In this document: positions 639 to 44,148 of the stretch, piece after piece
Layout: each line of letters begins with the position of its first letter
Numbering within the stretch: the stretch's first letter is position 1
Program-made: the position numbers and the translations under genes
Assembly: GCA_012026655.1 (NCBI GenBank)
Contig: JAAILG010001424.1
Coordinates: 1-64,000 of the forward strand
Length of the DNA stretch: 64,000 bases
Direction: 5' to 3'
Source of the DNA: Hydrolagus affinis
Taxonomy: Eukaryota
Notes under the pieces: generated by a model
What the model was told of the DNA's origin: nothing
Database searches by the model: none
The model's input: the letters and a program-made list of their open reading frames with translations, nothing else

Positions 639-738
639 CTCTGCCTTCTTATTTCTTCTTGAGTTTCTTTCTCATAAGCATGTCTGTCTCCCTGCAGGTT
701 TCGCTCTTTTAGCTGCAAAGCAGCTACTTCATTCTCAC
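639..738 (-). CDS. Coding exon 2 of a CCDC63/ODAD1(CCDC114)-like outer dynein arm docking coiled-coil gene
   Basis: TTGTGTTCTCAG| ... |GTGAAT, phase 1-2; (S)ENEVAALQLKERNLQGDRHAYEKETQEEIRRQ(R) resembles the ODAD1/CCDC63 N-terminal motif LQRQxRxMEGDRxAYxxESQExIRKQ. Confidence 0.75.
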
Positions 739-3145
739 CTGAGAACACAAAATTTCTTGAAATTCACAGCACGTACCATCCCTTGCAATGTACAGTATTT
801 TGGAAAATAAAATAAATAATGCTATATAATCCAAATTGGAAATGGGGAACGACAAAGTAAATGATCAGTTCAAGATGATAGCAAGATAAATAAACCGTTA
901 GAAAAATGAACCGAAAAAGAACACAAAGAATAATTAATTATTGTGCTGTATGGTGTCGTGGGACTGAGAGCAGATTCCATGTTTCGGATTCAGAGCATAA
1001 ATCTGCTCTCAATCATATAAACACTGTTGAGAAATAATGTATCATATCTGTGTAGGTTTATCTTGACTATCAGGTTCAAAAAATAAACAAACAGAAGAAA
1101 CTGTAAAGGAAGTAGAGAAGTGTTGACTTAGTATTAGTGCTTCTCCTATTACTAATGTAAGGAACCTGGATGTCCTGCTGGAGTGAAGAGACCTTTTCCT
1201 ATCTTCTGCTTCTATCTATTCTTTCTCCTCCACACTCACTCTATTTTTAACTTGTTGAGTATAAAACATTTTGTGTTGACTTTTAAACAACAACCTAAAT
1301 AATTCAGCACAAATTGCTCTGATAATTCAGATCCATTTGTTTTAGATTTACATCCAAATAGTTTCTCTGTCAATAAACAAATGTTTTTCTTAAAAAAAGG
1401 AGGGAATAGATTTAAAGTTAAAATAGTTAGCAGAAATGGTTAAAATAGGTCATTCACAGTCATATATTTTAAGATATTTTATTTCCATGCTGATTTTATC
1501 CAGTTGAAAGTAACATTGCAATATTAAATAGCTTTGTTGGAGTTTCTGTAATCTTGCCAGCAGTCTAAGTGTTAAAATATTCTCTTGCTGAGTGATGAAT
1601 GAGATTCAACGGTGTGGTTGTGTGTGAGTAAATCGTCATATCTGATCATCATTCTATTCCTCCAGTTTACTCTTTTCTCTCTGATGCTTTGAAGATAAAA
1701 CAAATTAGATTTTGTGTTGCCCAGCTACATTTTCCTGATTTCATTTTTATATAACAAATAGGCACCTTTAAAACATTGGTCAAAACTATCTATCAGCATC
1801 CACACAAAAGTTAAACTGTTTACCTTGAATAATCTATGAGCAACCCTACTTTCCATTAATCATCTTCCATTTTCCAATTTCATAGGTAACAGCCAAGAAG
1901 GGTTTTGACTAAGAAACATTTGGTAACTTGCTCTGCCGGTCCATTGGTCTCTTTTGCAAAGGTTGAGACTCAAATCACTACCCACCTTATTGTCCATTCA
2001 CACTTGAGCTAACATTCTTTGAACACTTGAAAACATTCATCCTAGGTACCTAACATCATTCAAGAATAAAAGGTCATCCATATGTCTCACATTACCACAT
2101 TGCTCTGGAAAACTCCACACTGAATACCCACAAAATTCCAAATCACAAAAAGAAGACATTAAAATTAATTTATCTCCCTTTTCACTCCTTTTTGTGGTGA
2201 TACTGCTGGCTACTCAGTCCCTGTAGCTTATAATTATGGTTTATAATTCCGGTGGAGCTAACAGTTTCTGGGACCCATAAAATCTAAACACAAGCTATAA
2301 ATTCATTGCTTTTGTGTGAAGCAGGCAAACTCACTCCCTGTATATGAGCCAGTTCATCGACCGAAAGAAAAAAGACCAACAGAAAATGGATACTGTAGTA
2401 ATGTTTTGGATGACCTAATGACCTACAAATTGGAGATTTTTTTTTAGTAAGTGAAGTTAAAATGTCAGGCTGGGTCATCAAGTTAGCACCAATGTCACTT
2501 CCTGCCTTGAATATGCACAGCATAACAGGAGGTATAAACATGTTTTACAGATATGCAGTGGTCGGCGGAACACCTATAGAATATCTTAGTAAAATCAGTA
2601 TCAAAAAGGGTGCTCACAGCATTCAACAGATTTCCTGTTGTTTGTACTATCCAGTTACTATGTTCACTTTGGACTAACAATTTTACACTTTGGCTATAGA
2701 TGCAGCAATCTCAGTTTTGCTCACCCTCATTAACCTGTTTGCTGCCATCCTGCTTTGCTGCTGATAACCCCATGGGAGATCTGGTTTCTAAAAACACAAT
2801 AGATTAAATGAGCAACATGATAGCATGATATTCTCAACAAACAGAAAAAACCCCCATTATTGCACCTGTATTCTTTGAAGTTGAACAAACAACCACCATA
2901 CAGATTTGAGCTGAAAGCATTAAATAATAAAAATAATAAATAATTAAATAATTATATAATCAAGTTCTCTGTTGGAAATTACTTGTTACAAAATAAACAA
3001 TCAAGTTCATCCACAGAATACAGTCAATTAACTTTCAATATATTTGGTGACGCACTGGAGATGTCTCAACAATTGTTAAGGCAATATATCAAATGCAATA
3101 ATAATAAATTATTGCAAGTTGTACACCTAAATCCAGGATTAAATC

Positions 3146-3231
3146 CATTTTTCAGCCATTGTAAAAGACTCCAAAGAACAAAAAATGTGTATTTTTTGTT
3201 CTTTGGAGTCTTTTACAATGGCTGAAAAATG
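3146..3231. repeat. Perfect inverted repeat (41-bp arms, 4-nt loop)
   Basis: 3146-3186 is the exact reverse complement of 3191-3231; loop GTGT. Confidence 0.95.
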
Positions 3232-3523
3232 TAATTTGAATAGATTCAGTAGGATTTGCAATCAGAAACAATAAATGCATTGTTGAAACCTTTAAGCTCA
3301 GCCATCATGTTAATCAAGTAAATTTGACTTCAATCCACTCTTTCTATAAGAAATGTATTTGAAATGTACCCATTGAATCATTTTCATTTGCATCCGAAAT
3401 GAACATTACCAACTCTCAAAATTATAGTCAACTTTATACTAACTTGGAATGAACAAATCTATGAAATTATAGACAATTTAAACAGTTCAGAAAAAATTTA
3501 TTGTTTTGAAATGTGTTACTCAC

Positions 3524-3566
3524 TCTGGCTTCCTTTAAGTTCCATTCCTTTCTTAGGTTTCACCAT
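3524..3566 (-). CDS. Putative first coding exon of the CCDC63/ODAD1-like gene (exon probably 3524-3588)
   Basis: ATG at 3566, MVKPKKGMELKGSQ, then A|GTGAGT donor (phase 1) joining in frame to exon 639-738; acceptor ATCTTCAG at 3589. Confidence 0.6.
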
Positions 3567-5498
3567 TCTGATGGAAGCATAACCTTTTCTGAAGATCGTA
3601 CTCCAAATGAAAAGGGTGATGGATGATGAAGGCTTTATTAGCAGAGAAATTAAATTGTGAGACTTTATATAATTTAGTATATAAGTAAGAAATAAAATTT
3701 GAATCTTGAGCAACTTCAGAATCCTATTACATGTACTTGTAAAACTTACAGTCTTCCAAACAGGGATTTCAGGTCTCCAATGAACTGGTTTGAAGACTAG
3801 TTGATAATTGTCTTTTTGTGCACAATAAAACAGCAATAATTTACTGGTTGTGAGAGTACTACTGATCCTGATTAAGAAGCTTAGAAACAAAATAATAATG
3901 TGTGCAAAATATTTACCTGCCAAGTAAGACACAAATTGAATAAGTAACAGGTCAGGTGTTATCAGTTACTATAGAAGTTACAGAGTAAGCAAAGTTCAAA
4001 CAGCGTTTCCAGGCATTCATTCCGTGGGAGAGACACAGAAGAAAAGGTTCATTAATCATAAACCCCTTCGATTACAACAAAGCAACCTCTTTTCTTAAAA
4101 CAGAGTACTGTATGTTTTTGTACAAAAAAAGGGAAAAAAAATTCCCATTCACAAAGAACAATATTAGTTAGTCTAATACTTGATGTTACACAGATTTCTA
4201 AAACAATTACAGGTATATGCCATATTCTCACTGGTATACCAGGATCATTAAAAAGTGTGTTTCTTGAGTTTCAAAAGCTCCCAAATTAAAAAGATTAAAA
4301 ATAGTTTCTTTCATTGCAAAACATATTACGAATGTTAGTAGTTGGTGACCACTAACTAACCACTAAACATTATGGTTAGTGATGTGGCAGTAATCTATAT
4401 GTGAGGAATAGTAGCAACTTAAACTGTTATACCTTTGGTTATGACCAACAGGAAGTCACAAGACTTTCATAATAGGGAACTCTTGACTATTAAAGCCACT
4501 TTAATCTATATGTTGTACAGATAGGAATTGTTTAAATCAGTCCAATATTGCAACTAAATTTTGTTCATGAAAAAATTATGCAATGATGCACTCCACAGTC
4601 ATACTTTTAAGGTTAAACCGTCTATATTTTCAGCCACTATATCAACCGATTCATCATTTATTGGTTATTCATTAACCATGGGTTAATACAGAATATGTTT
4701 TGTTACTATTAAGTGTAGGAATGTTTTAATTAAAGTGGACACATTAACGATAGTCTGGCAGTAGCCAAGATAACTTGTTTGACTCCCAACCAAAATATCG
4801 CAAGCTCTAGCATGTTAACAATTCATTAGTCAGTGTCATAATCTTAGATTGAGTTACATGCCTCTGTCAGCTATGGCATGAGGTCACACTGTATGCCAGC
4901 TTCACCTCTGAGTTTCCTTTCATTGTTGCTGAACCCATCAGTGATTGGTCTTTTCTCTGATAGAAAAGCTGAATGTTTTTATTAGATCACTGTTTGTTGT
5001 GGTCAGTCAGGTGTACTACTGTAATACAGCAGGATATCATATTTTTAATGAATGCCACAGCACCATTCAATCACATGATTTACTTACAATCGATAAGTCA
5101 CAGAGTAGATTTTCAGTTGTATATGGAATATTTCTAATATTGCTTGCATATGCACACATCATACCATTTTAACACTAGAATTGTATTCAATACTATATTT
5201 TATTGACAGTTGCTGTTACTATCTTGTCTTTTGGATGGATCTAGATTGACTTGCATGTCACATTTGCTTAACAATGTCTGGAAAAAGAACTGATGTCTTT
5301 CAAAAAAAACAAATGTTTTGAATCACAGCAATGCAGAATTCAACACATTGCGATTTCACAGCAAATCTTTACTTTGTCGAAACAGATATTGATTTCAAGG
5401 ACATGACACGAGAGAAAAAAAACAATATAGTAGATCTATCTTTAGTTTGGAAAGTCAATAGCCTCAGTTAACCCTGTTTCCTCTTGAATAATTAAATA

Positions 5499-6215: not shown

Positions 6216-7261
6216 TAGTCATTTTATTTTGAGCAGGAGCTCCAACATTTAATCTTCAAAAAGAAAGTTCAACTGCAACTGAATTGTACTGAACACAAAC
6301 CCTTCCATTAACATGAGAGAAGCTAAGTTTACTTACTATTGTTTCTCATGCTCCAGAGTAAGGTGCCAAATGCTATAAGTCATTGGTAACTGCTGCTCTT
6401 GATACACAAGTACACCTAAAGCATGTCAGTTAAATGAACAATTCACCAAAATCAAGGTATTGTAAATATTTTAATTAGAAGAAGCCATTGGAGCTTTTGA
6501 AGGTAGTTTAAATGAGATTATGGTTACCTGTCTGGTGTAAGAGTGGATTTAGAAAATCTGAATATGAATGGAAAGAAAATATGAATGGAAAAATCAATAC
6601 AGAATCAGTATTATTCTCACGACTCATTCTCACTGATGCAATGTTTCTTCCTATTAGCCATCACATTTAGTTATATGTCCATCAATTTTCCTTCTATTCT
6701 TCCAGTTTTTCAGACCTTACCCTTGTGTAACTATTTAAATATGAACAATATGTACAGTAGCAAATTAAATAAACAATTTTCTTTGGTTCAGTTTGAATAT
6801 TTTACTGTTAAGTACAGGGGTTACATAAAGCCACTGGAAAACAGACTAAAACACATTTCAACTCACTGAAAAAGCAATGTTAAACAATCAATCAATCACT
6901 AAAATAATGAGTGAAATTTTAATTAATTGGAAATGTAATTCAAAGACAATTAATGCACGAAACACATTAACAAAAAGCTTTCACATGCCATATCTGGCCC
7001 TAGTTACTGTTAAGACAAAAACACTGGAAAACAATATAACAAATGTTACACTGAAAAAAAGTTAACGTATTTGGGAAACAAATAAACACAAAGAATGCTG
7101 AAAATAATAACACTCAGCACCAACACAGTCACTCATATTGAAAAGATCAAAATCTTGTTATTGTAAAACTGCAATTACATATATATATATGAGATTTTTG
7201 ACTTACCAAGCAGTAATTTTAGGATTTATAATTACAGATTTGATGTTTCATTTTCAATAAC

Positions 7262-7383
7262 CTAAATGACAATGAGATTAGGAAGTCCATACATTATGAA
7301 GTTAAAAGATGACTGAAAAATATTTGTATCTTCTAAAGTGTTGAGGCTGGGCTGGGCTGTAGGTTTAGCTGAAAGCTCCTTTT
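7262..7383 (-). CDS. CFAP46: CFAP46 terminal coding exon (window exon 54)
   Basis: TTTTTCAG| phase 1; ...SSFNFIMYGLPNLIVI-TAG, conserved YGLP C-terminal motif. Confidence 0.85.
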
Positions 7384-17602: not shown

Positions 17603-17715
17603 CTTGAAGATTCATGCAAATTAACTTTGATGGCAACATATTTGCGAGAAAGCGTTCTGTCCCATAAAAGATAAATGCTTTGCAGCTGCTCAGCTGTTGT
17701 TCCCAATCTGCATGA
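17603..17715 (-). CDS. CFAP46: CFAP46 exon 48
   Basis: HADWEQQLSSCKAFIFYGTERFLANMLPSKLICMNLQ; phase 2-1. Confidence 0.92.
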
Positions 17716-18356
17716 CTGTGAAAGTAGAGAATAAATTCTTTACAATTTAAAAAAAAATCCCCCAAATGATTTGATGATAAATGATATTTGCTGCATCTTT
17801 ACTACTGAGTTACTACTGACAAGTATATTCACTGTATTTGTGGGCAAATAAAGCGCCAATTTGTACATATTGAGTTCCAACAGTAAAACAGCCTGAAGTA
17901 AATGACCAATCTATTTGAGTGAGTGTTAGCCAGGACACTAGGAAAAGCACCCTTCTTTTTTGAATAAAATATTTTTTTGCATTAACCCAAACAGTTAATT
18001 AGGACCTTGGTTTTAATGTCCGTTTTTTCAAACATACATCCAAATGCAAAAGTACAAATCTTTACTTGTCTTATAAATTCCTCTTCAGCAGCAATTTGTT
18101 TAATACACTTTTTAATCCAAGATTTTATTGATTTAAAACAAGTGTGATATTGTAACAACTATAAGGATTGGGTTTGAAAATGAATGCTTGAAACCACCTT
18201 CCTTACACATCGCAGACACATTGCCAATAACGAGCAGAATTAAGCTGCATCCTCTGAAGATGCAATTGAACAAGTCTTCAGGAAGTTTACCTTTACTATT
18301 TATATTTTGCCAAATTTTAAAATGTCCCCACCCCTCAAGGAAAACGACAATACAAC

Positions 18357-18459
18357 CTTGGTATGTGGTCACTGCCCATAATACCATGCCATTGACTTGT
18401 AAAGAGAGTCTGGTATTGTTCCTTCAATTCTGTCATTATTTTTATCGGGTTGAAGAATT
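18357..18459 (-). CDS. CFAP46: CFAP46 exon 47
   Basis: EFFNPIKIMTELKEQYQTLFTSQWHGIMGSDHIP; phase 1-2. Confidence 0.9.
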
Positions 18460-19046
18460 CTGAAAAATAAAAGATCATGAATTCAACTCAATTATTTACC
18501 CAACAGTAAAACAATGTTTGATTTTTAATTGTGCTTTTAATATTTAATTTGGAATTAATGTTAAAGTGATAAAGTTATTACATTTGAATAGCTTTACTAC
18601 TTTAATATGAATTTAATTAAATAAATGTCCTGAAAATGTGCAGAATTGATCTGCCCATCAAAGCACTTAGAATAACCCTAAAAATTATAAGCCTAGAGTA
18701 TTAATGCAATTAAAATGAATTAGTACTGATTAGTACGGATCATCAAAAGTCTGTACATTTCGAATATCTTTTATGAGTAATGATACACATTTGTTTTTGT
18801 TTGATAATGCGCCACTTGAGAAAAACAATTTCTATATTTCAGTTTCTAATCACTTTAACAGCAAATGTTATGAATAACATATCAGTTGAACCTAGTTTCA
18901 GTACCTTCAATCCCCAAAACTAATACAAGTTTAGTTAATAAATTTATACAATATAACTGAGAAACACAAATCTAACATGAAGGTCTAAAGATGTTTTTGA
19001 ACTTGACATATGCAAATAAAATGCAAAAATATCTTGATTTTCTTAC

Positions 19047-19082
19047 CCGAGTCTTTGGCTGTATCATAAGGTTCTACGATAT
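19047..19082 (-). CDS. CFAP46: CFAP46 exon 46 (36 nt)
   Basis: YIVEPYDTAKDS; phase 1-1; GTAAGA donor. Confidence 0.85.
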
Positions 19083-19655
19083 CTGACAAATTCAGTTAAG
19101 ATGTATATGGTGTGGTTAAGTTTTTAATATACAAACCAAACCTAAACTTATTGAGTGATGACCAACCACCAACAATGCCTTACCAGCCATGTCTCCTTGC
19201 AATCAAATTCTCTCTCCCAACATAAGAATATATTTCTGATAAGGTATTGATTTTACTGACTTCCAAAAAGGTGCTGAGCTGAATAGGCCTTCTGTGATTC
19301 AGGAACTACCTTCCAGTTTCCATCTACTACTTACTGGGGTTTTCAGATTGCAAATGCTGTTGCTATTCAACTAATTATACCATTTAAAATAATTATAATT
19401 AAGATCATCACAGGAAAGTAAATTGGTCAGATGCTTGAACTTTTAACATTTTAAGTCATGTAAATTTTGGGTGCACTTTTAGTTTATCCCAATAAATCAA
19501 ACAGGACAATTAAAATTTACAATTTACAGCCAGAGAGTTAAAACACAAATTCCAGGAATCTGAATATGGATTTAAGAAACATTCTCTTTTTGTCAATGGA
19601 AGATTGTTTTGAGGCAACTATTTAGTAACTTCAATTCCATACATTAGAAGGATAC
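19083..19655 (-). other. GT-AG U12-type (minor spliceosome) intron of CFAP46
   Basis: Donor GTATCCTTC; branch-like ATCTTAAC at 19095-19102, 13-14 nt before the AG; no pyrimidine tract. Confidence 0.8.
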
Positions 19656-19713
19656 ATTTGAATTTATTAGTATCTATTGGAAAGCAGCATGGTGGTACAA
19701 CACGATCAAGTGC
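19656..19713 (-). CDS. CFAP46: CFAP46 exon 45
   Basis: ALDRVVPPCCFPIDTNKFK; phase 0-1. Confidence 0.85.
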
Positions 19714-20709
19714 CTATAATTCAAACATACAGAAAAGGTTATATAGAGGAACAGTCAAAAATGATTCAAATAATGTTTTAGTAAACAACAACAAAATTAC
19801 ATTTGTATAGTGCCTTTCACATAACTCCAGGTACTGAGCTTTTCATTTACTTTTTAACTATTTTGTACAGTATCTTATAAATTAATTCACCAAAAAAATA
19901 TAGCCATTTTACTTTAAGGTATATCCTATGAAGTGCTTTGGGGCCTCCTCCTGATGTAAAAGGGCCGTATGCCAAAAGTAAGGATTATTTATTATTGAAA
20001 ATAACAATTAAGTGGGACAGGAAGACAATAGTTAATACTTACTGTATTATCAATAACAACTAATTGCATTCATATAGCGCCCTTTATGGGGGTAGCATTT
20101 TAGAGCGCTTAACAGTGGAAACCTTGACATAGAATCAGGGAGAGAGGAAAGTCTTCAGGTGTGATCTGAAGAAGGGGAAGGAGGAGGCATAGTGATTTGA
20201 GGAAGAGGGTTCCATAATTTCTGGACATAGTGGCTGAAAGCATAATCAACATCAGGATGACTTTCCTAAACTTCTGATATCCTGAACCAATCTTTGAACA
20301 AAGAAATCTTACAGCTTATTTCATCCCTGGTAGTTAACGAAGTGTACCTACTCAAGAGTCGGTAGAAGCCATTATTGAAGATACAGATTCTGTATTGGCC
20401 AGAACAGAGCATCTTTTTTCTTAATAAAAAGCTCAACATCAGCTGACACCACAGACTACAAGAGAACCCTGTTAAAACATGGACATTTGATAATCTGGAC
20501 ACTTTCATTTACACCTGAAAGTGAATGGGTAGAAGATAATATTCTTGCAACCATCATTGAGACATCCTGGATATGTTTTACATACCTAGTGACTTCACAG
20601 CTTTCGATTAAAAAAAAGTAACAAACTCTGTTTTGTGTATACAGAATCAAATGTCACAGAGATAGTTTCTTATTTCAGTATCCAGAACAAATAGGGAATG
20701 GTAGTTTAC

Positions 20710-20771
20710 CAATTTCTGTTTCTTCTTCTGTTTTTCTCTTGTTTTGGGGGATTTTTTCACCTCGACTTCTT
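20710..20771 (-). CDS. CFAP46: CFAP46 exon 44
   Basis: TCCTGCAG| EEVEVKKSPKTREKQKKKQKL |GTAAAC; phase 1-0. Confidence 0.8.
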
Positions 20772-22126
20772 CTGCAGGACAGAAACAATTGAAATCTTTA
20801 AGGGAAGAAAATGCCTAAAGAAATCCATAAGTATAAATCTGAAAGAAAGTGTAACACTCTGTTTTGCGGGGAATACATTACAATAAGATCTATGTGTTCT
20901 ATTATCTACTAGATTTTTAAAAATTACATTTTGTTCAGCCATTTCTCTCTTCAATATGTTTTCTCACATTCCACATAACATAATCTGTCTAACATAATCT
21001 CTGTAACTTCTATCCCTCATTGCTCCATTACAATGCCATTTCAACCTCATAACCTGCAATCATGGCTCAAAATTGATGCCAGGTTTGGTGTTTATTGCCC
21101 ATTTTTAGGCAGAAATTGGGTCCACACTGCAGGAAGTTACTCAGATCTGTACCTGATTTAGTATTTTCTGCTGCTAACCATTGCCCTCTTGTGTTGGTGA
21201 AATTCATAACATTTTAAACATTATGTGGTGAAGTCTACTAACTGTTTTAGACGTTTCGCTTTCCATCCAAATTTGTGCAATAATAATTCTTGCATTTGAT
21301 ACAGCACCTTATCACATCATTGAGATATCTCAAAGATTCACAAAATATACTGTAAAGTGAATTAACTGTCTATTTTGTGGGCGAAACTCAATAGCCAATC
21401 ACATACAGCAGTGTCCACAGGATTCTTTCCTTCAGTTATTAGATTTAATTGTACGGTTACAAAATAAAGAATGAACTCCTGTTGCTGTTTGTTTATTGAC
21501 TTCTAAGCCTCTTGTTTCATTCTTTTTGGATTTTTGGGTCAATTTATGTGCAAGTGCGTAGCTAAAACTTTTCTCTGTAAAATAATGATTAGAAAACATT
21601 TTTAATTTCAAATATACTTTACCTGGCAAATACAGATTGACCAATAGGTCATGATATCTACCCTATTATCTAAAATATCACAATTTGTTTAAAACTTATT
21701 AGAAATCGTAATGGTATCACAACTTTTTGGTCACCCTGTATAACAAGTACACTCCAGTTTAGATACCCAACAAGCACTAAATTGGAGGACATTAGGTCCT
21801 CCAATTTAAGTTATTAAAAAAGTAATAGCTTTTTCCTGTCATAGATTCTGAATCGATATTCCTATCCTCATAGAATTACATAGAATAGGATGGCACAAAC
21901 ATAGACCATACTGCCTATCTAAAAATGAAAGTTACCACATTTGTAACACATACAGAAATGTCACCAGTATAAGGAGTAAAATAATACAAAAATAATTTGA
22001 ATAAGAAAACAAAATGAATGTTAACAATAATCAATTATAATATCTAAGTACGTGTATAGCATAAATTACAAAGTCCAGTAATTGCAATTCAAATAATTAC
22101 AGATCAATTCATTGTTCTGAATACAT

Positions 22127-22570
22127 CAACAACAACAACAAAATAACATTTGTATAGCGCCTTTCATGTTGGGAGGATGTCCTAAGGCACTGGACAGTCA
22201 GTGTTTCAGACCCGAGATGGGATCGGGATCAGGGAGGGTGGAGGGATGGGAGGTGAGGAGGGGACCGATGGGACCGTCAAAGTGGAGGGTCTTAAGGCAG
22301 GATGAAGGAGACTAGGAACGGGGCATGTTGGGATTGCATGATAAAATTCCAGAGGTAGGGAGCAGTGTGGCTGAAGGCTTGCCTGCCTATGGTAGAGCGG
22401 ATGGGTAGGGGGACATGGTGCAGGCCAGAGCACAATGAGCGGAGGGAGTGAACAGGTTGTTAGGGAGTTTGGGGGTCACAGAGGTAAGGTGGGGTAAAAC
22501 CATGGAGGAATTTAAAGGTGAGGAACAGGATCTTGAATTGAATCCTCTGAATGATGGGGAGCCAATAGAG
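22127..22570 (-). mobile_element. L2 LINE 3' fragment
   Basis: (CAA)n tail, tagcgcctttcatgttgggaggatgtcc, ORF2 remnants. Confidence 0.8.
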
Positions 22571-22632
22571 ATTGTTCATCGTTTTCTTTAACTAAGAAGA
22601 AAGGTTAATCTATTTATTCATTTACTGATTAC

Positions 22633-22797
22633 CTGGCATAGCTCTGTGAAAACGATTGTATAGAAACTGCAACGAGAAGTCTCGTGACACAGAAGTAATT
22701 TCATTCGTTTGAAGAAACCTTAGTGTTTCTAATGGCAGCTCCAACAATAAATTGTCGGGTAACAGAATTATACATTCTCCTCCAGCTCCAGGGGTAT
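22633..22797 (-). CDS. CFAP46: CFAP46 exon 43
   Basis: DTPGAGGECIILLPDNLLLELPLETLRFLQTNEITSVSRDFSLQFLYNR; conserved SRDFSLQ motif; phase 1-1. Confidence 0.95.
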
Positions 22798-23020
22798 CTT
22801 TAGGAACATACAAGTTTGATTAAAAATGTCAGTTGTTATTTCACAATATTAAATGCAGCAACTCATACAGCACCCTTGCCCTGTCAAAATACAATCTGAT
22901 TGAATAATCAACAAAACATTCTACTTTGACTGGCACTAAAGGTTAAACTCACACATTAACCGTTATGATTGAAAAAAAGGTTCAAAGGGTCCAGGGGCAT
23001 GAAATACATTTTAAGTACTG

Positions 23021-23334
23021 TAATAATAATTATTCTTACATTTGATATACTGCTTTTCATGTCTTCGAGAAGCCTCAAAGCGCTTCACAGAATATACCGT
23101 AAAGTGAATTGATTGTATATATTTGTGGGCAAAATGTGGCAGCCAATCAGGCACAGAAGTATCCCACAAACGATCGTGGATTGAGTGACCAAATTATTAT
23201 TGTTTTTTTTCTTGAGTAATTATTATCAGGCTTGTGGAGTAAGGAAACTTGCCCAAGGTTTCACCCTATCAGGAATCGAACCCAGGTCTCTGTCTTGCAT
23301 GGCGAGTGCTCTAACCATTGAGCAATAGGACTCC
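23021..23334 (-). mobile_element. Full-length tRNA-derived SINE (family A)
   Basis: Head GGAGTCCTATTGCTCAATGGTTAGAGC with A and B boxes; (TAA)n tail. Confidence 0.9.
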
Positions 23335-23857
23335 ACATACTATAGTAGATAGTAATATAGTAAAATCTTCTAAACAATCAAAACAGTACACATTATGGTG
23401 TCTCCAAATAGGATAGAAAGCAGAAATAGCTGGGACATGCAAACAGATGAATATGTGCCCATTCAATTGTATAGATTTCTTGGGTGGAAGGTTGCAAACC
23501 ATTAACTATTAAGAACCAACACCCTCTTTAGTTATTGCAGAATGCTGAGGGTCCCTTATTGCTGCAAGATCTATTTTGGAATTGTTTAAAGTAGCAGAGC
23601 GAGTCTTCCTTTGAAATATTTATTTGTGTGAATGAAGTTGGCTTCAACCCAGTGCCCACCCCATCTTGTTCAACACTCCTGCCAGTGTTAACTGCAGAAT
23701 ATTTATGCAGATGCTGGGAATATGATTCCCCCTTATTTAAGTATCAGAGTCCTATATTATTCCCAGTCCATATTAGGGCGTGGTTATGGATCAGGTTTAC
23801 TTTACTGTAGCTTATTGAGATACACTCAATAACCTTAAGCTTATTAAGGATACAAAC

Positions 23858-23937
23858 CTTGAAGTGATTTTTCAGAAACTGATTTCATCTCTTTGTTTTT
23901 TGACCTTTTGGCTTTGTCAGTTTTGTATACTGATTGA
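23858..23937 (-). CDS. CFAP46: CFAP46 exon 42
   Basis: QSVYKTDKAKRSKNKEMKSVSEKSLQ; phase 2-1 bridges its neighbours. Confidence 0.8.
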
Positions 23938-24070
23938 CTGAAACATAAATAATTATTGCATAGAACAGTGTTAACTTGTATCCACCAGAAAAATAAATTC
24001 AATGTTCTATTGTAGCAACTGGAATTAGTAACTGATTTTATTTTAGATCTGCTACATTATAAACACTTAC

Positions 24071-24189
24071 CCAAAGATTGAAAAGTCAAACTGTGACAAA
24101 ACAGGCCTCAAATAAGCTTCCAAGGCTTCAGAAATGTTGTTGAAGTGTGCAAGAAGCATACTTTTATTGGTGACAGCATTTTCTGTATC
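24071..24189 (-). CDS. CFAP46: CFAP46 exon 41
   Basis: DTENAVTNKSMLLAHFNNISEALEAYLRPVLSQFDFSIF; phase 0-2. Confidence 0.85.
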
Positions 24190-25180
24190 CTTTTTCATTT
24201 AGAATGAATCAATTAGTCAAATTTATATTTCAAACCACATAAAGTTCAATTTCTAATAACATGCACACTTTGATAGTAAAGCACAAATAGTTTCACGAGT
24301 CATTCTTATAGAACAGTGCAGAAGATGCCTGCAGAAGATATTTGCAATGTAATAAATGATAAGCAAATAAACATCATAGAGACAAGGGATAGTTTCTTAA
24401 TTATAAAGTAGCACAAACAGAAAGAAATGCAGTTAAGTAGTAAATTAAAAACATAAGAAGGGAAAGAGCAGGGTCAAAAACGCAATTCATTACTGTTAAT
24501 CAATCAAGCTCAAATGTTGATAAATCAATGCAACATACCATGATGTAAAATGAAATGTTATTTCAACAAACCACAAAGAATTTTATTTTAAGTGCAAACA
24601 TTTCAATTGAATTTTGCAATATCATTTGTTCGAATCAGCTGATTACCAGTAAACCTATTACCGTGTTTAAGAGTACTGTACACAAATAATGCGGAGTTAC
24701 ACATACAATTGTGTAACGTGGAAACGTCCCTGTTTCTGGAATGGAATACAGATTCTCCCTCAGAGGAATGCATTAATAGGGATGCATTAATTAATAGAGG
24801 AATACATTAATTAGGGATGGACAGGCTCCCCTGAAAGGGCTCGGGATTTTCAGGTAAATGTGGTGCCAATTCTGCATAAAACCACTGCCTGTTTAAAAAT
24901 CTTTGTCTTGGATTAGACAGAAGAGTGGGATGCAGATGTTGGTTGGCTAGCATGGCTGTTATTCTTCACAGAAGATAGACTCTGGGTATTTGTCCGAGCT
25001 GTTACTAATTTTGTCATCAGGGGTTCTTGGAAACTATCCACAGGGGCACACGGAAAATTGCCCACGAACAACAATAATTTGAACAAATATAGTGCCCTTC
25101 ATGCACGGTAGCATCTCCAAGTTCTTAAAGCAGGGGCACTCAGAGCAGGGGTAGACATAGCCTGTCTTCCCCTGCTAATT

Positions 25181-25270
25181 AACAACAACAACAACAACAA
25201 ATTACATTTATAGAGCGCCTTTCACGTCGGGAGGACGTCCCAAAGCGCTGCACAGGGGGAGTGTGACCCG
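25181..25270 (-). mobile_element. L2 LINE extreme 3' end
   Basis: (AAC)7 tail plus gagcgcctttcacgtcgggaggacgtcccaaagcgctg. Confidence 0.8.
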
Positions 25271-25663
25271 AAATATTATACACAGGCACAAATGAATATT
25301 AATGATATGCATAACACATTCAACTACTGTATATGGATACCAATAAAGAACTATTTTAGGTGATTCCCTTAACAAATGTAATTCAAGGTGACTTTGGAAA
25401 ATCAGATGCGGTAACAGTTTGAAGGAAAAAAAAAGTAAAACCCGATAAGGTTGCTGGGCTACAAATGTAGTGTTATTACTCTATTTATAATAAAAGAAAA
25501 GGTAACATTAATGACAAATCTTTTGAAAAATTGTATGTATTTGTCAAATAAATGAATAGATAAATTATATATACATACACACACTTCTCGAAGATGTGAT
25601 GAGGCTCTATATCAAAATCAAGTATTATTATTATATAGAATATGTGATGGGGGTTTTGTTTTT

Positions 25664-26370
25664 ACAACAACAAACAAAATTACATTTATAGAGCGCCTTT
25701 CACNNNNNNNNNNNNNNNNNNNNNNNNNNNNNNNNNNNNNNNNNNNNNNNNNNNNNNNNNNNNNNNNNNNNNNNNNNNNNNNNNNNNNNNNNNNNNNNNN
25801 NNNGAGAGAGGGAGGTGAAGGGACTGTGGGATGGAGTTCCAGTGTGGGGGCAGAGAGGCTGAAAGACAGTTCAGGATCGAACAAGACGCCCAAATTCCTA
25901 ACTAGCTTAGAGAGGTGGAGAGTGCAGCCTTGGATGCTGATAGTGTCAGTACCTGAGGTGCAGAGGCGCTGATGTGAGCCAATCAGAAGGGCCTCAGTCT
26001 TGCGGACTTTCAGCTGGAGAATGTTGTTTTTTGTCCAGGACACAATGACAGACTGGCAGTCAGGACTCTGGAAGTCGTGGAGTTGAGGATGGAAGCGGAA
26101 AGGTAGAGTTGGGTGTCATCTGCATACATGTGGAAATTTACCCCATGTCTGCGGATGATGTCACCGAGGGGGAGCATGTAGAGTGTGAAGAGGAAAGAGG
26201 AGGGGATCAAGAACAGAGCCCTGAGGAATGCTGTACAAGACAGTGCAGGGGCTAGAGGAAAAGACGTTGGCGGATACAAAGTCTAGGCGGTGTGAAAGGT
26301 AAGACCGGAACCACTCAAAGACGGAGCCTTGAAAGTTGAAGTGAGAGGAGAGGTGGTGGAGGAGGATTAA
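25664..26370 (-). mobile_element. L2 LINE fragment with reverse transcriptase remnant (spans N gap)
   Basis: PQGSVL; [29 protein letters not shown]; VRNLGVLFDPELSF; frameshifted. Confidence 0.92.
25704..25803. other. Assembly gap (100 N)
   Basis: Run of N. Confidence 1.
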
Positions 26371-26947
26371 CAATGTTTTAACATATCTTCATAGGCTTAA
26401 TAGTTATAAACTTATAAACGTCATCCGTGTGTCATGGATTCATGGTAGAGGAAGCTGGTGCTACGTTTCAGTTGTTCACTTAAGATGTTCCGGTGCCTTG
26501 GGACCTCCTCCCGACGTGAAAGGTGCTCTATGAATGTAATTTTGTTGTTGTTTGTTGTTGTTTATGGAAAGTATATTCTAGTCATTAATTATTGACATGG
26601 AATTAGAAATAACAGTTGATGTAAATCACATCCATTCTAGCTCCTTGCTGGCATCTTTGTATGGTTCCCTTGAATGCAACTGTGAAGCAACTTTTTTGGA
26701 GGATGACATCTAAGGCTAAATAATTTAGAGCTATTCACATTGTTGTTCTGAAATTTTGCCACAGTTTTGCAAACCGCTCCATATGTTCACTCTGTATGTG
26801 TTCTCCAAAAAGGTGTTTGGGATTACAGTTAATACAATGAAAATAAATGAAGCACAAAACTGATAATCTTAACAAAAACATACAAGACCACCATATATAT
26901 ATAGATTATGTGGACCCTCACTCTGTCTTAGAACAAATATTTTGTAC

Positions 26948-27072
26948 CTTGTTGCATTTGAGAAAGTAATTCATTAGATTCTGCTTATGCTTGCGGAATC
27001 TTTGCAGCAGGTGTGAAAATACTGTAGGATCAACTGAAGCTCGCGCAATTTTAGCTTGGGTTAGACTTTGAC
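26948..27072 (-). CDS. CFAP46: CFAP46 exon 40
   Basis: QSLTQAKIARASVDPTVFSHLLQRFRKHKQNLMNYFLKCNK; phase 1-0. Confidence 0.9.
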
Positions 27073-27467
27073 CTGAAAAAAGTATAGAAATATTATTTTG
27101 TTAATAGACAATGATTTTATTAAATGAGAAAATACAGCTCAGCTGCATATAAAGGTCTGAAAACAACAACAAATTGCATTTAAACAGCACCTTTTGCTTC
27201 GGGAGGATGTCTCAAGGTGCTATAAATATGGGGTATCAGGAAAGTTCCCAAGTGTTCCTATGAATGGTTCCCAAGCATCCCAGTCACAATTCACTCACTC
27301 AATGATAGCTCCTTGGCCAATATAAGAATGATATTGGTACAGGTTATTATTCACCTATGAAGCTGAGCTTAACTTGGATCTTGAAGGGAGAATACATTCA
27401 AAATGTATTCAAATACAAAGTTACAATTACAAAATAAGCAAATAATTCAAAATATTAAATAGCTTAC

Positions 27468-27538
27468 TTCCTTGAGAGGCTTTGATTTTTTGTCCAGCAG
27501 ATTTTGGTTTTTCGAGAAGTGCTCCATATAAAAGGGTC
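27468..27538 (-). CDS. CFAP46: CFAP46 exon 39
   Basis: TLLYGALLEKPKSAGQKIKASQG; phase 2-1. Confidence 0.9.
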
Positions 27539-27616
27539 CTAGAGGAAGCTTACAATATTATATGTAACAATAATAGCAACAATAACTTACATTTATAAGG
27601 CGCCCCTCACATAAAA

Positions 27617-28015
27617 ACATGAGAATTAGGAGCAGGAGCAGGCCATTTGGCCCCTCGAGCCTACCCCGCCATTCAATAAGATCATGGCTGATATATTCTA
27701 ATTCCACCTACCCGCCTTATCCCCATATCCATTTATCCACAAGAAATCTATCAATCTCAGTCTTGAATATGTTCAAGGACTGAGCATCTACCCCTTTGGG
27801 GTAGAGAATTCCATAAATTCATTACCCTCTGAGTGAAGAAGTTTTTTCTCAATTCAGTGCGAAAGGGCTGACCCCTAATTTTAAGACTGTGAGCCCTGGT
27901 TATAGTTTCTCCAACCGGGGGAAAAAGTCTCCCACTATCTATTCTGTCGTGCCCCTTAATAATCTTATAGGTTTCTATAAGATCATCTCTCATTCTTCTA
28001 TATGCCAGAGAATAT
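27617..28015 (-). mobile_element. CR1 LINE 3' fragment nested in an L2-like 3' end (about 27570-28230)
   Basis: LYSLAYRRMRDDLIETYKIIKG...FFTQRVMNLWNSLP, CR1 ORF2 C-terminus plus 3' UTR. Confidence 0.9.
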
Positions 28016-28879
28016 AGGCCTAGATTGCAGGGCAGTGTTCCAAAGAGCTTGACGGTGGAGCATGAAGCCGAGCTGGGGAGAGGTCTTTGTTGGCCTCTTC
28101 GGGAAGGTCTTCCTGAAGAAGGGGTAGGAAGGGGCAAGGCGAAAGGCGAAAGGATAGAGGAAGAGTGTTCTAGAGTGGAAAGTGGTGGAAAGGGAGGGCA
28201 CAAGGGAGAGGCAGAAGGGGGAGTCTTCCTAAAACATCATTATTTTAACGTGTCACTCATCTCCATATTAATTCACTCCCCAAATTAAGACGACCTTCCC
28301 ATCATGTGGTTTATTTTAGGATAGAAGCAACTCAGATTTCAAATTGTTCAGTGTACATTAATGTGATTCCAGTCATGTGAATCTGTACTCAAGTTCAAAT
28401 TATTGGTGCTGTTGATTTTTATCTGTAAACTGATGCATGTCTGTTTGGGAAACAGAATATATTTTCTCATCCATCAGTGTCAACCTCTTCCAGGCAAATT
28501 ATGGACAAGTTAGATGGAGGGTAAATTGTTCACTGTGTGACTAACACTTTAGGAACATAAATGATCTACTTGACATTTGGTACATTTTGCAAAACTCTAT
28601 GCAGGTGCTTAATCACATATGTGTAAACCTCCCTTCAACGTGGAAATACTCCCATGTTAGGAAATATCCAAATAATAAAACTACAGTTTTAGAAATAATT
28701 TACCTTTCATATATTACAAGAATATCTGTAAAATGAAAAGAAGAATTTTGGCAAATTTTGAAAATAGACTGTAGCAGTGCACCCTACTGAAAATGTAAAT
28801 GGACACAATCAAGTATGAACAACTAAAAGATATGTGTTTGTGCATATAGAAAAATGCACAGAAAATATTACATTCAGAC

Positions 28880-28977
28880 CTGTCTTCAGAGTGCTGAAGA
28901 ATGATGATATTAAAGTTGGAAGGAAATTCGTTCAACAGACTGAAGTGCTGGGGATGAATTGAGATGTTTTCCCATGC
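28880..28977 (-). CDS. CFAP46: CFAP46 exon 38
   Basis: AWENISIHPQHFSLLNEFPSNFNIIILQHSED; phase 0-2. Confidence 0.92.
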
Positions 28978-29099
28978 CTGTAAAGTGAAGAATTAGGCTA
29001 TATTCAATATATACCTGTATGCATAACAAACAGGAAGTAACGTTAAAATGACAAGCTAATGTACCAGAAGTTGGTCATTTTAGTACAAAAAGCTATACA

Positions 29100-29950
29100 A
29101 GATATGGGCCAGCTGCCTGCACATGCAGTGAATGCAACAAATGCTGTTTCTACCTGTACCCAGTGCTGAAAGGTTTGGGTCTGGCAGAATTACCTTGCAA
29201 AGTCCCAGAGAGTTCCATCCCAGATCCCCCAAGTATTCACCGAGTGGACCGAGCGGCAAGTAGTTGAAACAGTTCAAAGGGGGGAAGAGAGCAGATCTGA
29301 TCGAGAGGTACTCTGCAACGACAGCCTATGTCTGGCAGAACGCCTCACCATTGGCCATGACCAATAACCATCAGGATATGGCCTGACTTTCAATAAAACA
29401 GGCCTACCCTCCACCTCAAGGCTATCATGCACGGTCCAGGTCAGGGACAGTCAGCACGCTACCCTCGGGCCGACTGCAGAGGAGAGGAGACCGTGGACCA
29501 ACTTTTCAGAGAGTGTTGGTTCACAAAAGTGGTTTACAAAAAGATGGAATGCATACTCTCACGGTTCTTCCCTTGGGACCCGCTGTCATAGCACTCAGTG
29601 ATGTACGGCCTCTTCCTGGGCACCCACAGTGCGCACGGATGTAGTGCACACTGGGGCGTTTCCCCGACTGTTTCAAAGTGAGTATCCCAAAAAGAATGTG
29701 CACAACCTCTCCACTAAGAGGAGAAGGATAGGGAGGGGGTACAAAACCTCATTTGTCACTGCACCCTGCAAAGGCGGGGAAGTCTTGGTTATTTCACCAA
29801 AGTGGAGTCTGCAGAGGCTATTTCTGGGAGTTGGGTCTGTTGTGTTCTGTCACGGGATAATAACATGTTGCGTCCCCTTTTCTGTAACAGATTTGATACT
29901 GTCTGAGACAAGCGTAATTATATACCAACAAATAAATATTTTAATTTAAA
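29100..29950 (+). mobile_element. Tx1/L1-clade LINE 3' fragment (decayed)
   Basis: VWQNASPLAMTNNHQDMA*L and YPRADCRGEETVDQLFRECWF (degenerate zf-RVT knuckle); AATAAA and A-rich end near 29931. Confidence 0.7.
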
Positions 29951-30316
29951 AATACAGTGAATGGAGACACATTGCAACTGCATTATAAACCCACCATAAA
30001 GAAGCACATCACTGAAGTTGTGCCCTCTATATCATGTAGAGTCACATTTCATATAGAGAGATCTCTACACAACAACATAATTAAATTTGTAAAGTGCCTT
30101 TCGGGTTGAGAGGACGTCCCACAGTACTGAATAGTTGGGGGTCATGATCCGAGCATGGGAGAAAACTACATTACTGAGCACTGGAGAACAATACTCTGAA
30201 TCACCCACCAGTCTGACATCATCTTTCTGACTTCTACCCTCCAGCAAATTCCTCATCCATGCCTGGAGACCAACAATATAGTTCATTTTTTAGAAATGCA
30301 TTTCCCTAATTCTTAC

Positions 30317-30481
30317 CCCAAAAGTTTCAAGTCTTTCATTCACTGTCTTGAGTAAAAGTTTATTCAATCGATCCTCACTTAGCTTCTGTTGAAGATTTGT
30401 TAATGCTGCAAGCTGGGAACTGCTGGTATTACATATTACTTTCTCCAGGACATTTTTCAACATCACTGTAGCTCTGCAACT
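30317..30481 (-). CDS. CFAP46: CFAP46 exon 37
   Basis: SCRATVMLKNVLEKVICNTSSSQLAALTNLQQKL...; phase 0-0. Confidence 0.93.
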
Positions 30482-30681
30482 CTGGAAAAGTTTTAAAAGA
30501 AAGTTTAGACATTTGATGATCTGAAAGCTGTTAGTGTAACCAGAAATGTACTTTTTTGTGAATTTTAAGTCTACAGATACATAAGCAGTGAAACTCTGAT
30601 AACTTGTCGCCCAGGTGAAATGACTCAACTGATTACTTATCAGAGTTGACTGATTATTGAAAGTACAGTATCTTCAAAGTA

Positions 30682-30948
30682 CAGGTATCCCCCACTTAAC
30701 GAAAGGGTTAGGGACTTCAAAATCCCTCGTTAAGCGAAAATTGCGTTAAGCGGGCTGGTGGGAGATGCCTACTGTATTTCCGTACATGAAAAAAATTGTT
30801 CCTAGTAATGCCTTGCGCTTAACCTAGTGTTAACATTTACAGTGTATCAGCGACGGCATAAGGTAGGTAGCACTGCTATTGAAGGCAGGGAGAGAGAGTT
30901 AAAGAGAAAGAGACAGAGAGAGAGAGACTGTGAGTGAGATTGTGACAG
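30682..30948. mobile_element. Tigger/pogo-like element left end with (GA)n, runs into gap
   Basis: TA|CAGGTATCCCCCACTTAACG with cgttaagcg subterminal repeats. Confidence 0.7.
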
Positions 30949-31226
30949 NNNNNNNNNNNNNNNNNNNNNNNNNNNNNNNNNNNNNNNNNNNNNNNNNNNN
31001 NNNNNNNNNNNNNNNNNNNNNNNNNNNNNNNNNNNNNNNNNNNNNNNNNNNNNNNNNNNNNNNNNNNNNNNNNNNNNNNNNNNNNNNNNNNNNNNNNNNN
31101 NNNNNNNNNNNNNNNNNNNNNNNNNNNNNNNNNNNNNNNNNNNNNNNNNNNNNNNNNNNNNNNNNNNNNNNNNNNNNNNNNNNNNNNNNNNNNNNNNNNN
31201 NNNNNNNNNNNNNNNNNNNNNNNNNN
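30949..31226. other. Assembly gap (278 N)
   Basis: Run of N. Confidence 1.
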
Positions 31227-31233
31227 AGAGAGA

Positions 31234-31341
31234 GATATATCAATATATCGGTATATATCGATATATCGGCGATATCGGTATATATCGATATGGGCAAACC
31301 GATGTATCAATATCAGAAAATTTCCATATCAACGGACCCTA
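31234..31341. mobile_element. hAT-type CGATAT MITE, copy 3 (right part only)
   Basis: Matches right ends of copies 1 and 2; ends ACGGACCCTA. Confidence 0.85.
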
Positions 31342-31635
31342 CTGTAAAGTGGATTGATACTATATGTAGAGGGCAAAATGCACCAGCCAATTGCACACAG
31401 CAATGTGTTATAAGCAGTCATGGATTGAATCTCAAATTAGAAATAAACACAGGAAAGAAAAAGTGATCAAAAGTTTGTTACAACATCGAAGAAAAAAAAC
31501 AGCTTTGCCTGAGCTATTTTGCTGATGAAATTTAATTAACAATTAAGAAGAAAATAGTGTATGTTTATTCATCCATTCTGTGGAACAAGTTCAAACTCCT
31601 TGTGACATGCATGAAGTTCTAATCAATCACCATAC

Positions 31636-31815
31636 CTGATAGAGTGCTAAATAATGCCCTGCTGAAACCGGATCAAACTGGCCGAAACATTCAACCATTT
31701 CAAGACTGGCTGCCTCTGTGCACTCAGTATATTTGTAGAGTAGTGCCCAGTTTATTGATTGCATCAGAATCTCATTCGCCTGAGCCAGGTACCTCTGAGA
31801 CAGGATTCTGTCATG
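31636..31815 (-). CDS. CFAP46: CFAP46 exon 36
   Basis: HDRILSQRYLAQANEILMQS...AASLEMVECFGQFDPVSAGHYLALYQ; phase 0-0. Confidence 0.95.
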
Positions 31816-31965
31816 CTTTAAATAAACAGAGAATAAGATGAGATGTAGAAACTTCCTAACTTACATTTGTTTGCATGAATAATACTAAACAGTAACCTTA
31901 CGAAACTATTCACAACAATTAATTAGATGTATCTGTAAAGTACAACTATATTGAAGTGCTAGTAC

Positions 31966-32073
31966 CTTCAATTGCTTGGCTTTTGCAACACATTTTGCCA
32001 TTTGCTGTGTGCTCACTGGTATATCATCATCGTTTTCTTCTGCTTCCAAACTTTTGTTGTCCATCACATCAAA
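31966..32073 (-). CDS. CFAP46: CFAP46 exon 35
   Basis: FDVMDNKSLEAEENDDDIPVSTQQMAKCVAKAKQLK; phase 0-0. Confidence 0.8.
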
Positions 32074-33727: not shown

Positions 33728-33916
33728 CTTCATTTGTTGTACCCAAATGTGACCAAGATGAATCGGATCTAGCTGGACAGCCAACCACCGTAGACATTTT
33801 CCAGTGAGATAGAGACATTTTGTTTTTATTTCTGGTGAACCAGTCTTCAGACGACAACCAGTCTGCAGTTGTAACAGAGCATTTTGTCCCAATACCTTGG
33901 ATACTGTTACCCATTC
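33728..33916 (-). CDS. CFAP46: CFAP46 exon 34
   Basis: EWVTVSKVLGQNALLQL...KCLYLTGKCLRWLAVQLDPIH; phase 0-0. Confidence 0.93.
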
Positions 33917-34435
33917 CTGCATACAGACAGGAGCATAAATTACTGCAAAATACATTTTGGGTTACAATATTATCCCACCTTGGATCAGATCTTGTAATTT
34001 GCCAATTAGGGTTAGGAGCCACTCAAGACACAGAGTGATTTGACGCAGTGGCGCAGCATGGCAATTTTTTCTACATTAACATATTTCAAATAGCTGGGAA
34101 TACAAATGAATGGGGACCGGGCATTTTAGCAGATTTACCAGGTTGTCGTGTTAAAGACGCTGTATTTGAATAATTGTAAAACCATATAAAGTCAGCAACC
34201 AATTAATTTTATTACTACTGTGCCATGTCCTAAAATTTATATTTTTACTAATACATTAAAAAAAGAAAATTATTTCAATTTAGGTACTCAATTCAGATGA
34301 TATTCATAAGTTTAGTAGTGTTTAAACACTTAAGATAATGATTCACTTACATAATGCAGTATATATGTAACATTTACTGTATCAGTAATTTGCACAAAAT
34401 TCCCATAAGTATATGTTAAGTCCATTTTCAAGTAC

Positions 34436-35802: not shown

Positions 35803-35938
35803 GTAAGTAAGTGGTAACAAGATCATCAACTCCCTGAAGATGTCCTCTTCAATCAGAACAGCCTTTTCCATCATTCCATATGCAGCTAAGAGGTGACTGT
35901 GTTTCAGTTCCTCATCTTCACTGTAATTGGCAAGTGTT
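35803..35938 (-). CDS. CFAP46: CFAP46 exon 32
   Basis: TLANYSEDEELKHSHLLAAYGMMEKAVLIEEDIF...; phase 2-0. Confidence 0.88.
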
Positions 35939-44146: not shown

Positions 44147-44148
44147 TA

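What the first reader, a model, noticed from the sequence alone, without database searches (positions are those of the whole stretch)
639..3588. Hidden CCDC63/ODAD1-like gene directly downstream of CFAP46
Seen: two minus-strand exons with canonical sites join in frame to MVKPKKGMELKGSQSENEVAALQLKERNLQGDRHAYEKETQEEIRRQR; exon 2 is absent from the ORF track. Knowledge: this resembles the N-terminus of ODAD1/CCDC114 and CCDC63 (outer dynein arm docking). As I recall, human CFAP46 is followed by NKX6-2, with CCDC63 and ODAD1 on other chromosomes. Inference: this may be an extra paralogue not at this locus in mammals, giving two tandem axonemal genes.
Basis: partly seen in the sequence, partly recalled or inferred. 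Interest (0 to 1): 0.7.

Follow-up and report, generated by a model that had tools for sequence, protein, structure and literature searches.

The report
Third vertebrate dynein-docking paralogue in fishes
Right behind CFAP46 lies an intact gene for a third relative of the two known cilium dynein-docking proteins ODAD1 and CCDC63, found from lampreys to lungfish, likely lost in land vertebrates, and carrying a unique 100-residue insert that is predicted to be a phosphorylation switch.

Summary
The gene goes on in contig C2137: 15 exons with canonical splice sites, 640 codons without a stop, 85% identical to a Callorhinchus milii protein that RefSeq labels 'CCDC63'. The same genome holds separate ODAD1 (C13197) and CCDC63 (C56817+C99471) genes. 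In trees without the insert, this gene forms a third clade (99.9/100): lamprey, chimaeras, shark, bichir, paddlefish, gar, bowfin, eel, catfish, coelacanth, lungfish. Forcing its cartilaginous-fish members into ODAD1 or CCDC63 is rejected (AU p<1e-40). It shares ten exon sizes with ODAD1 and adds an insert of about 100 residues, predicted disordered, with two conserved PKA-type motifs. It sits between CFAP46 and an opsin, probably VA opsin. A bichir model fuses it to CFAP46, and bird and lizard gene lists show nothing there. Likely an alternative DC2-type outer-arm docking subunit. Expression, axonemal role and tetrapod loss are not shown. Databases hold it as 'CCDC63-like'; I found no paper on it in 10 searches.

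The parts
3524..3566 (-). Coding exon 1 (ATG, 43 nt, phase 1 donor) of the third ODAD1/CCDC63-family paralogue
   Evidence: (86% to C. milii residues 1-14)
2725..2787 (-).
   Evidence: AG/GT sites; 67% to C. milii residues 15-38; present in P0001, P0009, P0011
639..738 (-). Coding exon 3 (100 nt, phase 1-2), first coiled-coil helix. The gene continues beyond the contig end in G000:C2137 (12 exons, 57270-35299, minus strand)
   Evidence: 91% to C. milii residues 39-72; same size and phases as the matching exon of the genome's ODAD1; one strong match in the genome; phase 2 fits the first C2137 exon
17607..62875 (-). CFAP46, upstream neighbour on the same strand (exons matched by alignment)
7261..7383 (-). 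Putative last coding exon of CFAP46 (tentative), about 3.7 kb before the paralogue's ATG
   Evidence: AG acceptor and short open frame seen; no database match

Best explanation
This is an intact third vertebrate member of the DC2/ODAD1/CCDC63 family, separate from this genome's ODAD1 and CCDC63, which likely works as an alternative outer-dynein-arm docking subunit whose 100-residue insert is predicted to be a PKA-phosphorylated linker. Shown: gene model, separate clade from lamprey to lungfish, ODAD1-type exon pattern, insert with conserved RRxS/T motifs, position behind CFAP46. Inferred: it arose by duplication of the ODAD1-type gene before lampreys and jawed vertebrates split. It would pair with ODAD3 (CCDC151) in a coiled coil whose N-terminal half lies on the doublet and whose C-terminal half grips the dynein tails. 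The insert lies roughly between these halves, so cAMP/PKA phosphorylation would tune outer-arm docking or beat in some cell type, such as sperm or a ciliated epithelium. It was likely lost in amniotes, perhaps in all tetrapods.
For: Gene: 15 exons, 14 introns all AG/GT, 640 codons without a stop, 85% identical over 643 columns to C. milii P0001. Three PF21773 loci in the genome. IQ-TREE on 43 rows x 526 columns, insert excluded: this clade 99.9/100 (12 rows), CCDC63 100/100 (8 rows), vertebrate ODAD1 86.6/78 (9 rows). Clade anchors: P0067 to PDB CCDC63 E=3.6e-225, P0104 to PDB ODAD1 E<1e-249; names. AU test: cartilaginous-fish members forced into CCDC63 p=1.7e-71, into ODAD1 p=3e-44; sister to ODAD1 not rejected (p=0.32); sister to CCDC63 p=0.017. 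Lamprey has both this gene (P0024) and ODAD1 (P0169); gar, coelacanth and the shark Heptranchias have both it and CCDC63. Ten exon sizes and phases equal the genome's ODAD1 (100, 190, 114, 68, 188, 83, 169, 164, 104, 91 nt), while the CCDC63 locus has fused or shifted exons. The spacing across the insert site is 30 aa at the median of 158 rows but 131-139 aa in 10 rows of this clade. An insert-only profile hits 16 of 190 stored proteins, all of this clade. PKA-type sites align at two columns in 9 of 10 and 10 of 10 insert-bearing rows; 2-5 sites per insert against 0.3-0.8 in shuffles. AlphaFold2 model of the lungfish orthologue: long helices, with residues about 317-395 mostly low-confidence coil. 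Complex of lungfish orthologue 30-316 with human ODAD3 60-330: weak support, score 0.46 against best control 0.00; runs agree in at least 92% of contacts, partner pLDDT at least 77. That mark was reached by 51 of 78 solved and 2 of 108 mismatched pairs, but at 0.60 or under by only 5 of 78 solved and by all 4 passing mismatches of 180; a like complex is solved, so it shows likeness only. Synteny: bichir model MBN3291260.1 fuses CFAP46 to this gene. Literature passages: CCDC63 replaces ODAD1 in sperm (PMC11779644); layout of the DC1/DC2 halves (PMC7817835); DC2 is phosphorylated in disordered segments, with cilium-specific sites (bioRxiv 2025.03.10.642390).
Against: No expression or localisation data here. 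The join of C1424 to C2137 is inferred (matching phase, unique halves, one C. milii protein spanning both); the contig ends do not overlap. Identity to ODAD1 and CCDC63 is low (24-31%), so the function may have drifted. The deep tree is unstable: CCDC63 falls among unnamed deep rows, 'all three vertebrate clades together' is rejected (p=0.0008), and the model was LG+F+G4 without a mixture, so date and order of duplication are open. The coelacanth model P0005 lacks the insert; a gar model lacks it too while the gar RefSeq model has it, so this may be an annotation artefact, but that is not shown. Motif enrichment is one inherited event counted many times, and RRxS is a short motif. The chimaera lineage has a long branch (0.29), and a candidate 16th exon opens with a stop after one codon. 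Against a related DNA run, 5 of 6 listed coding differences change the residue (the list was cut), which gives no sign of purifying selection at that short distance. Tetrapod absence is not proven: 50% clusters hide members (P0001-P0003 were themselves missing), and the word-index search missed known members.
Confidence: 0.62

Rival explanations
1. A real third paralogue that no longer sits in the axoneme but acts as a cytoplasmic or matrix assembly factor for outer arms, like Chlamydomonas ODA5/DCC3, the paralogue of DC2.
For: [quoted passage not shown] The clade has a long stem (0.52 changes per column) and a large insert that breaks an otherwise fixed 30-aa spacing.
Against: All coiled-coil segments, the conserved post-insert motif block and ODAD1's exon pattern are kept. 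Weak predicted pairing with ODAD3 (may be likeness only).
Confidence: 0.2
2. A real paralogue and docking subunit, but the insert is a neutral linker and the PKA-type motifs have no regulatory role.
For: The insert is predicted disordered and is basic; a gar and a coelacanth model omit it.
Against: It is about as conserved as the coiled-coil parts (C. milii against lungfish: 40% in the insert, 44% and 46% outside), and the motifs hold at two columns from lamprey to lungfish.
Confidence: 0.12
3. It is simply the CCDC63 (or ODAD1) orthologue, as the RefSeq label for C. milii says, or a decaying duplicate.
For: RefSeq names: 'CCDC63' in C. milii, 'CCDC63-like' in shark, paddlefish, bowfin and gar.
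Against: Separate ODAD1 and CCDC63 genes exist in the same genome and in C. milii. AU p=1.7e-71 and 3e-44. Open frame over 15 exons and orthologues across all fish groups sampled.
Confidence: 0.04

Closest known systems
[quoted passage not shown]
   Same: PF21773; best PDB hit of the C. milii orthologue (9cpc_1H, E=1.7e-35); ten equal exon sizes and phases; a sister relation is not rejected.
   Different: Only 24-28% identical to the genome's own ODAD1; separate clade; insert of about 100 aa with one extra intron and PKA-type motifs; one extra N-terminal exon; different locus; no tetrapod member seen.
CCDC63 (reserved symbol ODAD6), sperm paralogue of ODAD1
   Same: Same family (9fqr_Ix, E=2.2e-31); precedent for a tissue-specific swap of the DC2 subunit (PMC11779644).
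   Different: The genome's CCDC63 is another locus with a different exon pattern; membership rejected; no insert.
Chlamydomonas ODA5/DCC3 (assembly-factor paralogue of DC2)
   Same: An extra DC2-family paralogue in one genome (PMC8754002 passage).
   Different: An algal gene; no sequence comparison to ODA5 was made here, so orthology is neither shown nor expected.

Membership tests
DC2/ODAD1/CCDC63 family | ODAD1_CC domain (PF21773) over its curated cut-off | tested here: met
   C. milii orthologue 168.8 bits against a cut-off of 27; C2137 exons 45.2 and 30 bits
DC2/ODAD1/CCDC63 family | Long coiled-coil helices over both halves | tested here: met
   AlphaFold2 model of the lungfish orthologue: helices 33-86, 93-142, 152-272, 279-316, 426-528; pTM only 0.23
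DC2/ODAD1/CCDC63 family | Heterodimer with DC1/ODAD3 | tested here: inconclusive
   Weak support, 0.46 against best control 0.00, across species, like complex already solved
DC2/ODAD1/CCDC63 family | Sits on doublet microtubules and is needed for outer-arm docking | not testable with these tools
   Needs proteomics, cryo-ET or knockout
ODAD1 orthologues | Groups with mammalian, caecilian and lamprey ODAD1 | tested here: not met
   AU p=3e-44; C13197 holds that place
ODAD1 orthologues | ODAD1-type exon pattern | tested here: met
   Ten equal exon sizes and phases against the genome's ODAD1
CCDC63 orthologues | Groups with mammalian, coelacanth and gar CCDC63 | tested here: not met
   AU p=1.7e-71; C56817+C99471 holds that place
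CCDC63 orthologues | Sperm-specific expression | not testable with these tools
   No RNA data for this gene could be examined
ODAD3/CCDC151 (DC1) | Closer to ODAD3 than to DC2-type proteins | tested here: not met
   The full-length orthologue hits six PDB sequences at E<=0.01, all DC2-type, none ODAD3; the ODAD3 hit of the 33-aa exon was E=4.5

The most novel reading that the evidence does not exclude
Early vertebrates had three DC2-type docking subunits. The third carries a PKA-switchable linker at the hinge between its microtubule-bound and dynein-bound halves, giving fishes a cAMP-tunable outer-arm docking complex in some cilia or in sperm. It was lost from the CFAP46-VA opsin-NKX6-2 block on the way to land vertebrates.
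Probability: 0.3. Interest if true: 0.68.

Novelty: new variant of a known kind. Interest (0 to 1): 0.43.

Why it matters
The papers I read treat the vertebrate docking complex as having two interchangeable DC2 subunits: ODAD1 in epithelia and CCDC63 in sperm. One of them says it is unclear why such paralogue swaps exist (PMC11779644). A third, ancient subunit with a candidate regulatory insert gives a direct test of whether the docking complex is a site of cAMP control. It also corrects orthology: fish 'CCDC63' and 'CCDC63-like' labels mix two genes, which matters for fish models of ciliary dyskinesia and for sperm proteomics. It is an extra member of a well-studied family, not a new system.

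Tried and rejected
The 33-aa exon alone: no Pfam hit, PDB E=0.36. Six-frame comparison of the paralogue contigs was swamped by SINE matches. Best-hit classification against PDB misleads: single exons of both the ODAD1 and the CCDC63 locus hit CCDC63 first, so trees were used. RNA: no RNA holder listed. The one run, X1, looks like DNA of a close relative (about 1% different); no listed piece bridged the contig end. The selection test on X1 was too small and the list was cut. The 3' exons of CFAP46 at 11802-12008 and 7262-7381 found no database match; none of 11 window exon or ORF candidates hit Pfam. Atlas: the whole protein gave ODAD1_CC clusters only; the insert gave no hit at 0.9 or more. 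The last homologue search with the 11-row alignment gave 16 hits among 7,988 scored candidates, no tetrapod of this clade, but it also missed known members. Rows dropped: P0007 and P0071 from the 156-row tree; P0029 cut to its last 365 residues; the careful tree used 43 chosen rows, 15 of them unnamed. Supplements of PMC10445033 (table S11, bird gene order) could not be read, and bioRxiv supplements are closed; both may bear on the synteny and phosphorylation claims. Earlier scan findings: none.
Full report
Observation. The window is the first 64 kb of contig C1424 of a fragmented 1.11-Gb genome, so the gene runs off the left end. On its own the 33-aa exon is weak evidence: no Pfam hit, PDB E=0.36 to a docking-complex protein.

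The rest of the gene. A genome search with PF21773 (ODAD1_CC) gave 13 matches on four contigs, which make three loci: C13197, C56817 with the overlapping C99471, and C2137. C2137 carries minus-strand exons up to its right end and no 5' exons. One of its exons found a single homologue among 22 candidates: C. milii 'CCDC63', XP_007894505.2 (P0001, 85%). The joined model has 15 exons, all introns AG/GT, and 640 codons without a stop; it is 85% identical to P0001. Exon 3 has one strong match in the genome and its phase 2 fits the first C2137 exon. The contig ends do not overlap, so the join is inferred. A candidate 16th exon near C2137:33570 opens with a stop after one codon, where the shark protein goes on.

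Which gene it is. An exhaustive HMMER search of 1.84 billion cluster representatives gave 433 proteins at E<=1e-30, and the best 150 were listed. A FastTree of 156 rows (two dropped) showed three vertebrate clades. Names came, and the mammalian anchors from PDB. C13197 groups with C. milii, caecilian, lamprey and mammalian ODAD1. C56817 groups with C. milii, shark, gar, coelacanth and mammalian CCDC63. The window's gene groups with proteins of sea lamprey, lungfish, coelacanth, C. milii, Heptranchias, bichir, paddlefish, bowfin, gar, eels and a giant catfish. These are labelled 'CCDC63-like', 'CCDC114-like', 'ODA1-like', 'myosin heavy chain-like' or hypothetical. IQ-TREE on 43 rows x 526 columns, insert excluded, supports this clade at 99.9/100, CCDC63 at 100/100 and vertebrate ODAD1 at 86.6/78. 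AU tests reject placing the cartilaginous-fish members in CCDC63 (p=1.7e-71) or ODAD1 (p=3e-44). Sister to ODAD1 is not rejected (p=0.32), and sister to CCDC63 gives p=0.017. The deep branching is not trustworthy: CCDC63 falls among unnamed deep rows and monophyly of the three vertebrate clades is rejected (p=0.0008), under a model without a mixture. Exon structure is independent evidence: ten exon sizes and phases equal the genome's ODAD1, whereas its CCDC63 has fused or shifted exons (182=114+68, 158, 224, 75, 193 nt). Lamprey has both this gene and ODAD1, so the split predates the lamprey-jawed vertebrate divergence (inference).

What sets it apart. Where ODAD1 has one 135-nt exon, this gene has two (195 and 246 nt), adding about 100 residues. 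The spacing at this site is 30 aa at the median of 158 family rows and 131-139 aa in 10 rows of this clade. A profile of the insert hits 16 of 190 stored proteins, all in this clade, and nothing convincing in the Atlas. The insert is about as conserved as the rest of the protein. It carries basic-basic-x-S/T (PKA-type, consensus recalled) sites at two aligned columns in 9 of 10 and 10 of 10 insert-bearing rows, lamprey included; each insert has 2-5 sites against 0.3-0.8 in shuffles. The ODAD1, CCDC63 and invertebrate rows checked have 0-1 such sites in the whole protein (15 rows). These are related sequences, so this is one event, not ten. AlphaFold2 gives long helices with a low-confidence stretch at the insert. 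The coelacanth model lacks the insert; a gar model also omits it while the gar RefSeq model has it.

Neighbourhood. CFAP46 lies upstream on the same strand. A bichir gene model fuses CFAP46 to this gene and maps collinearly over the whole window, ending on exon 3, so the order is shared with bichir. Downstream on C2137 an opsin lies tail to tail (7tm_1; nearest PDB hits are visual opsins). I read it as VA opsin from recall and from synteny. In birds the order is CFAP46, OPNVA, NKX6-2, INPP5A (PMC10445033, passages; its supplement was unreadable). In the supplementary table of PMC11893379, CFAP46 and VA opsin have consecutive RefSeq numbers in tinamou and in Komodo dragon, which suggests no annotated gene between them (inference). 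That paper found no VA opsin in 202 mammals (passages). That human CFAP46 is followed by NKX6-2 is recalled. No tetrapod appears among the named members of the clade, but both protein searches hide or miss members, so loss is likely, not shown.

How it likely works. [quoted passage not shown] The distal CCDC63/CCDC151 coil rotates during the stroke, and CCDC63 replaces ODAD1 in sperm (PMC11779644, passages). DC2 is phosphorylated in disordered segments, partly in a cilium-specific way (bioRxiv 2025.03.10.642390, passages). The new paralogue keeps both halves and places its insert about midway. I infer an alternative DC2 subunit with a phosphorylatable linker. A fold of the lungfish N-terminal half with human ODAD3 gave weak support only: 0.46 against best control 0.00, runs agreeing in at least 92% of contacts, partner pLDDT at least 77. 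At 0.60 or under, that mark was reached by 5 of 78 solved complexes and by all 4 passing mismatches of 180, and a like complex is solved. Rivals: an ODA5-like assembly factor (PMC8754002, passages), or a docking subunit with a neutral insert. Against a related DNA run, 5 of 6 listed coding differences change the residue, mostly conservatively, and none of the listed indels falls in an exon. This is too little to show selection, and constraint may be relaxed in chimaeras.

Novelty. PMC8754002 (passages) lists ODAD1 and CCDC63 as the human DC2-type genes; PMC10139691 (passages) names only CCDC114 for zebrafish. Ten paper searches (open-access library only) showed no description of a third vertebrate paralogue. 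Gene-tree databases were not available and may already show the clade. Verdict: a real, ancient, mislabelled third paralogue with a distinctive insert; a new variant of a known kind, of moderate interest (0.43).

Noticed in passing
G000:C2137:11972-23847 (+) (L022, L015): Opsin gene tail to tail with the paralogue, with a long C-terminal exon; probably VA/VAL opsin by recall and synteny.
   Followed up: partly
P0029 (Polypterus MBN3291260.1): A public CFAP46 model is a fusion of CFAP46 with the N-terminal half of this paralogue; likely an annotation error, useful as synteny evidence.
   Followed up: yes
G000:C56817 and C99471 (L021, L007): The true CCDC63 orthologue is split over two overlapping short contigs and has fused or shifted exons relative to ODAD1.
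   Followed up: partly
G000:C13197:7004-6817 (L019): One intron of the genome's ODAD1 starts with a GC donor in my model.
   Followed up: no
G000:C2137:~33570 (L015): A candidate terminal exon has a stop after one codon where the shark orthologue has a 30-residue tail, suggesting a shortened C-terminus in chimaeras.
   Followed up: partly
window 3152-3304: A short inverted repeat reading alike on both strands, near-identical ORF ends; the related run X1 differs here (47 bases replaced). Probably a small mobile element.
   Followed up: no
window 9537-9992 and 14337-14877: Two copies of a low-complexity ATATCG-rich repeat element inside CFAP46 introns.
   Followed up: no
P0180 against P0013 (gar); P0005 (coelacanth): Some public models cut out exactly the insert, so domain-guided annotation may hide it.
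   Followed up: partly
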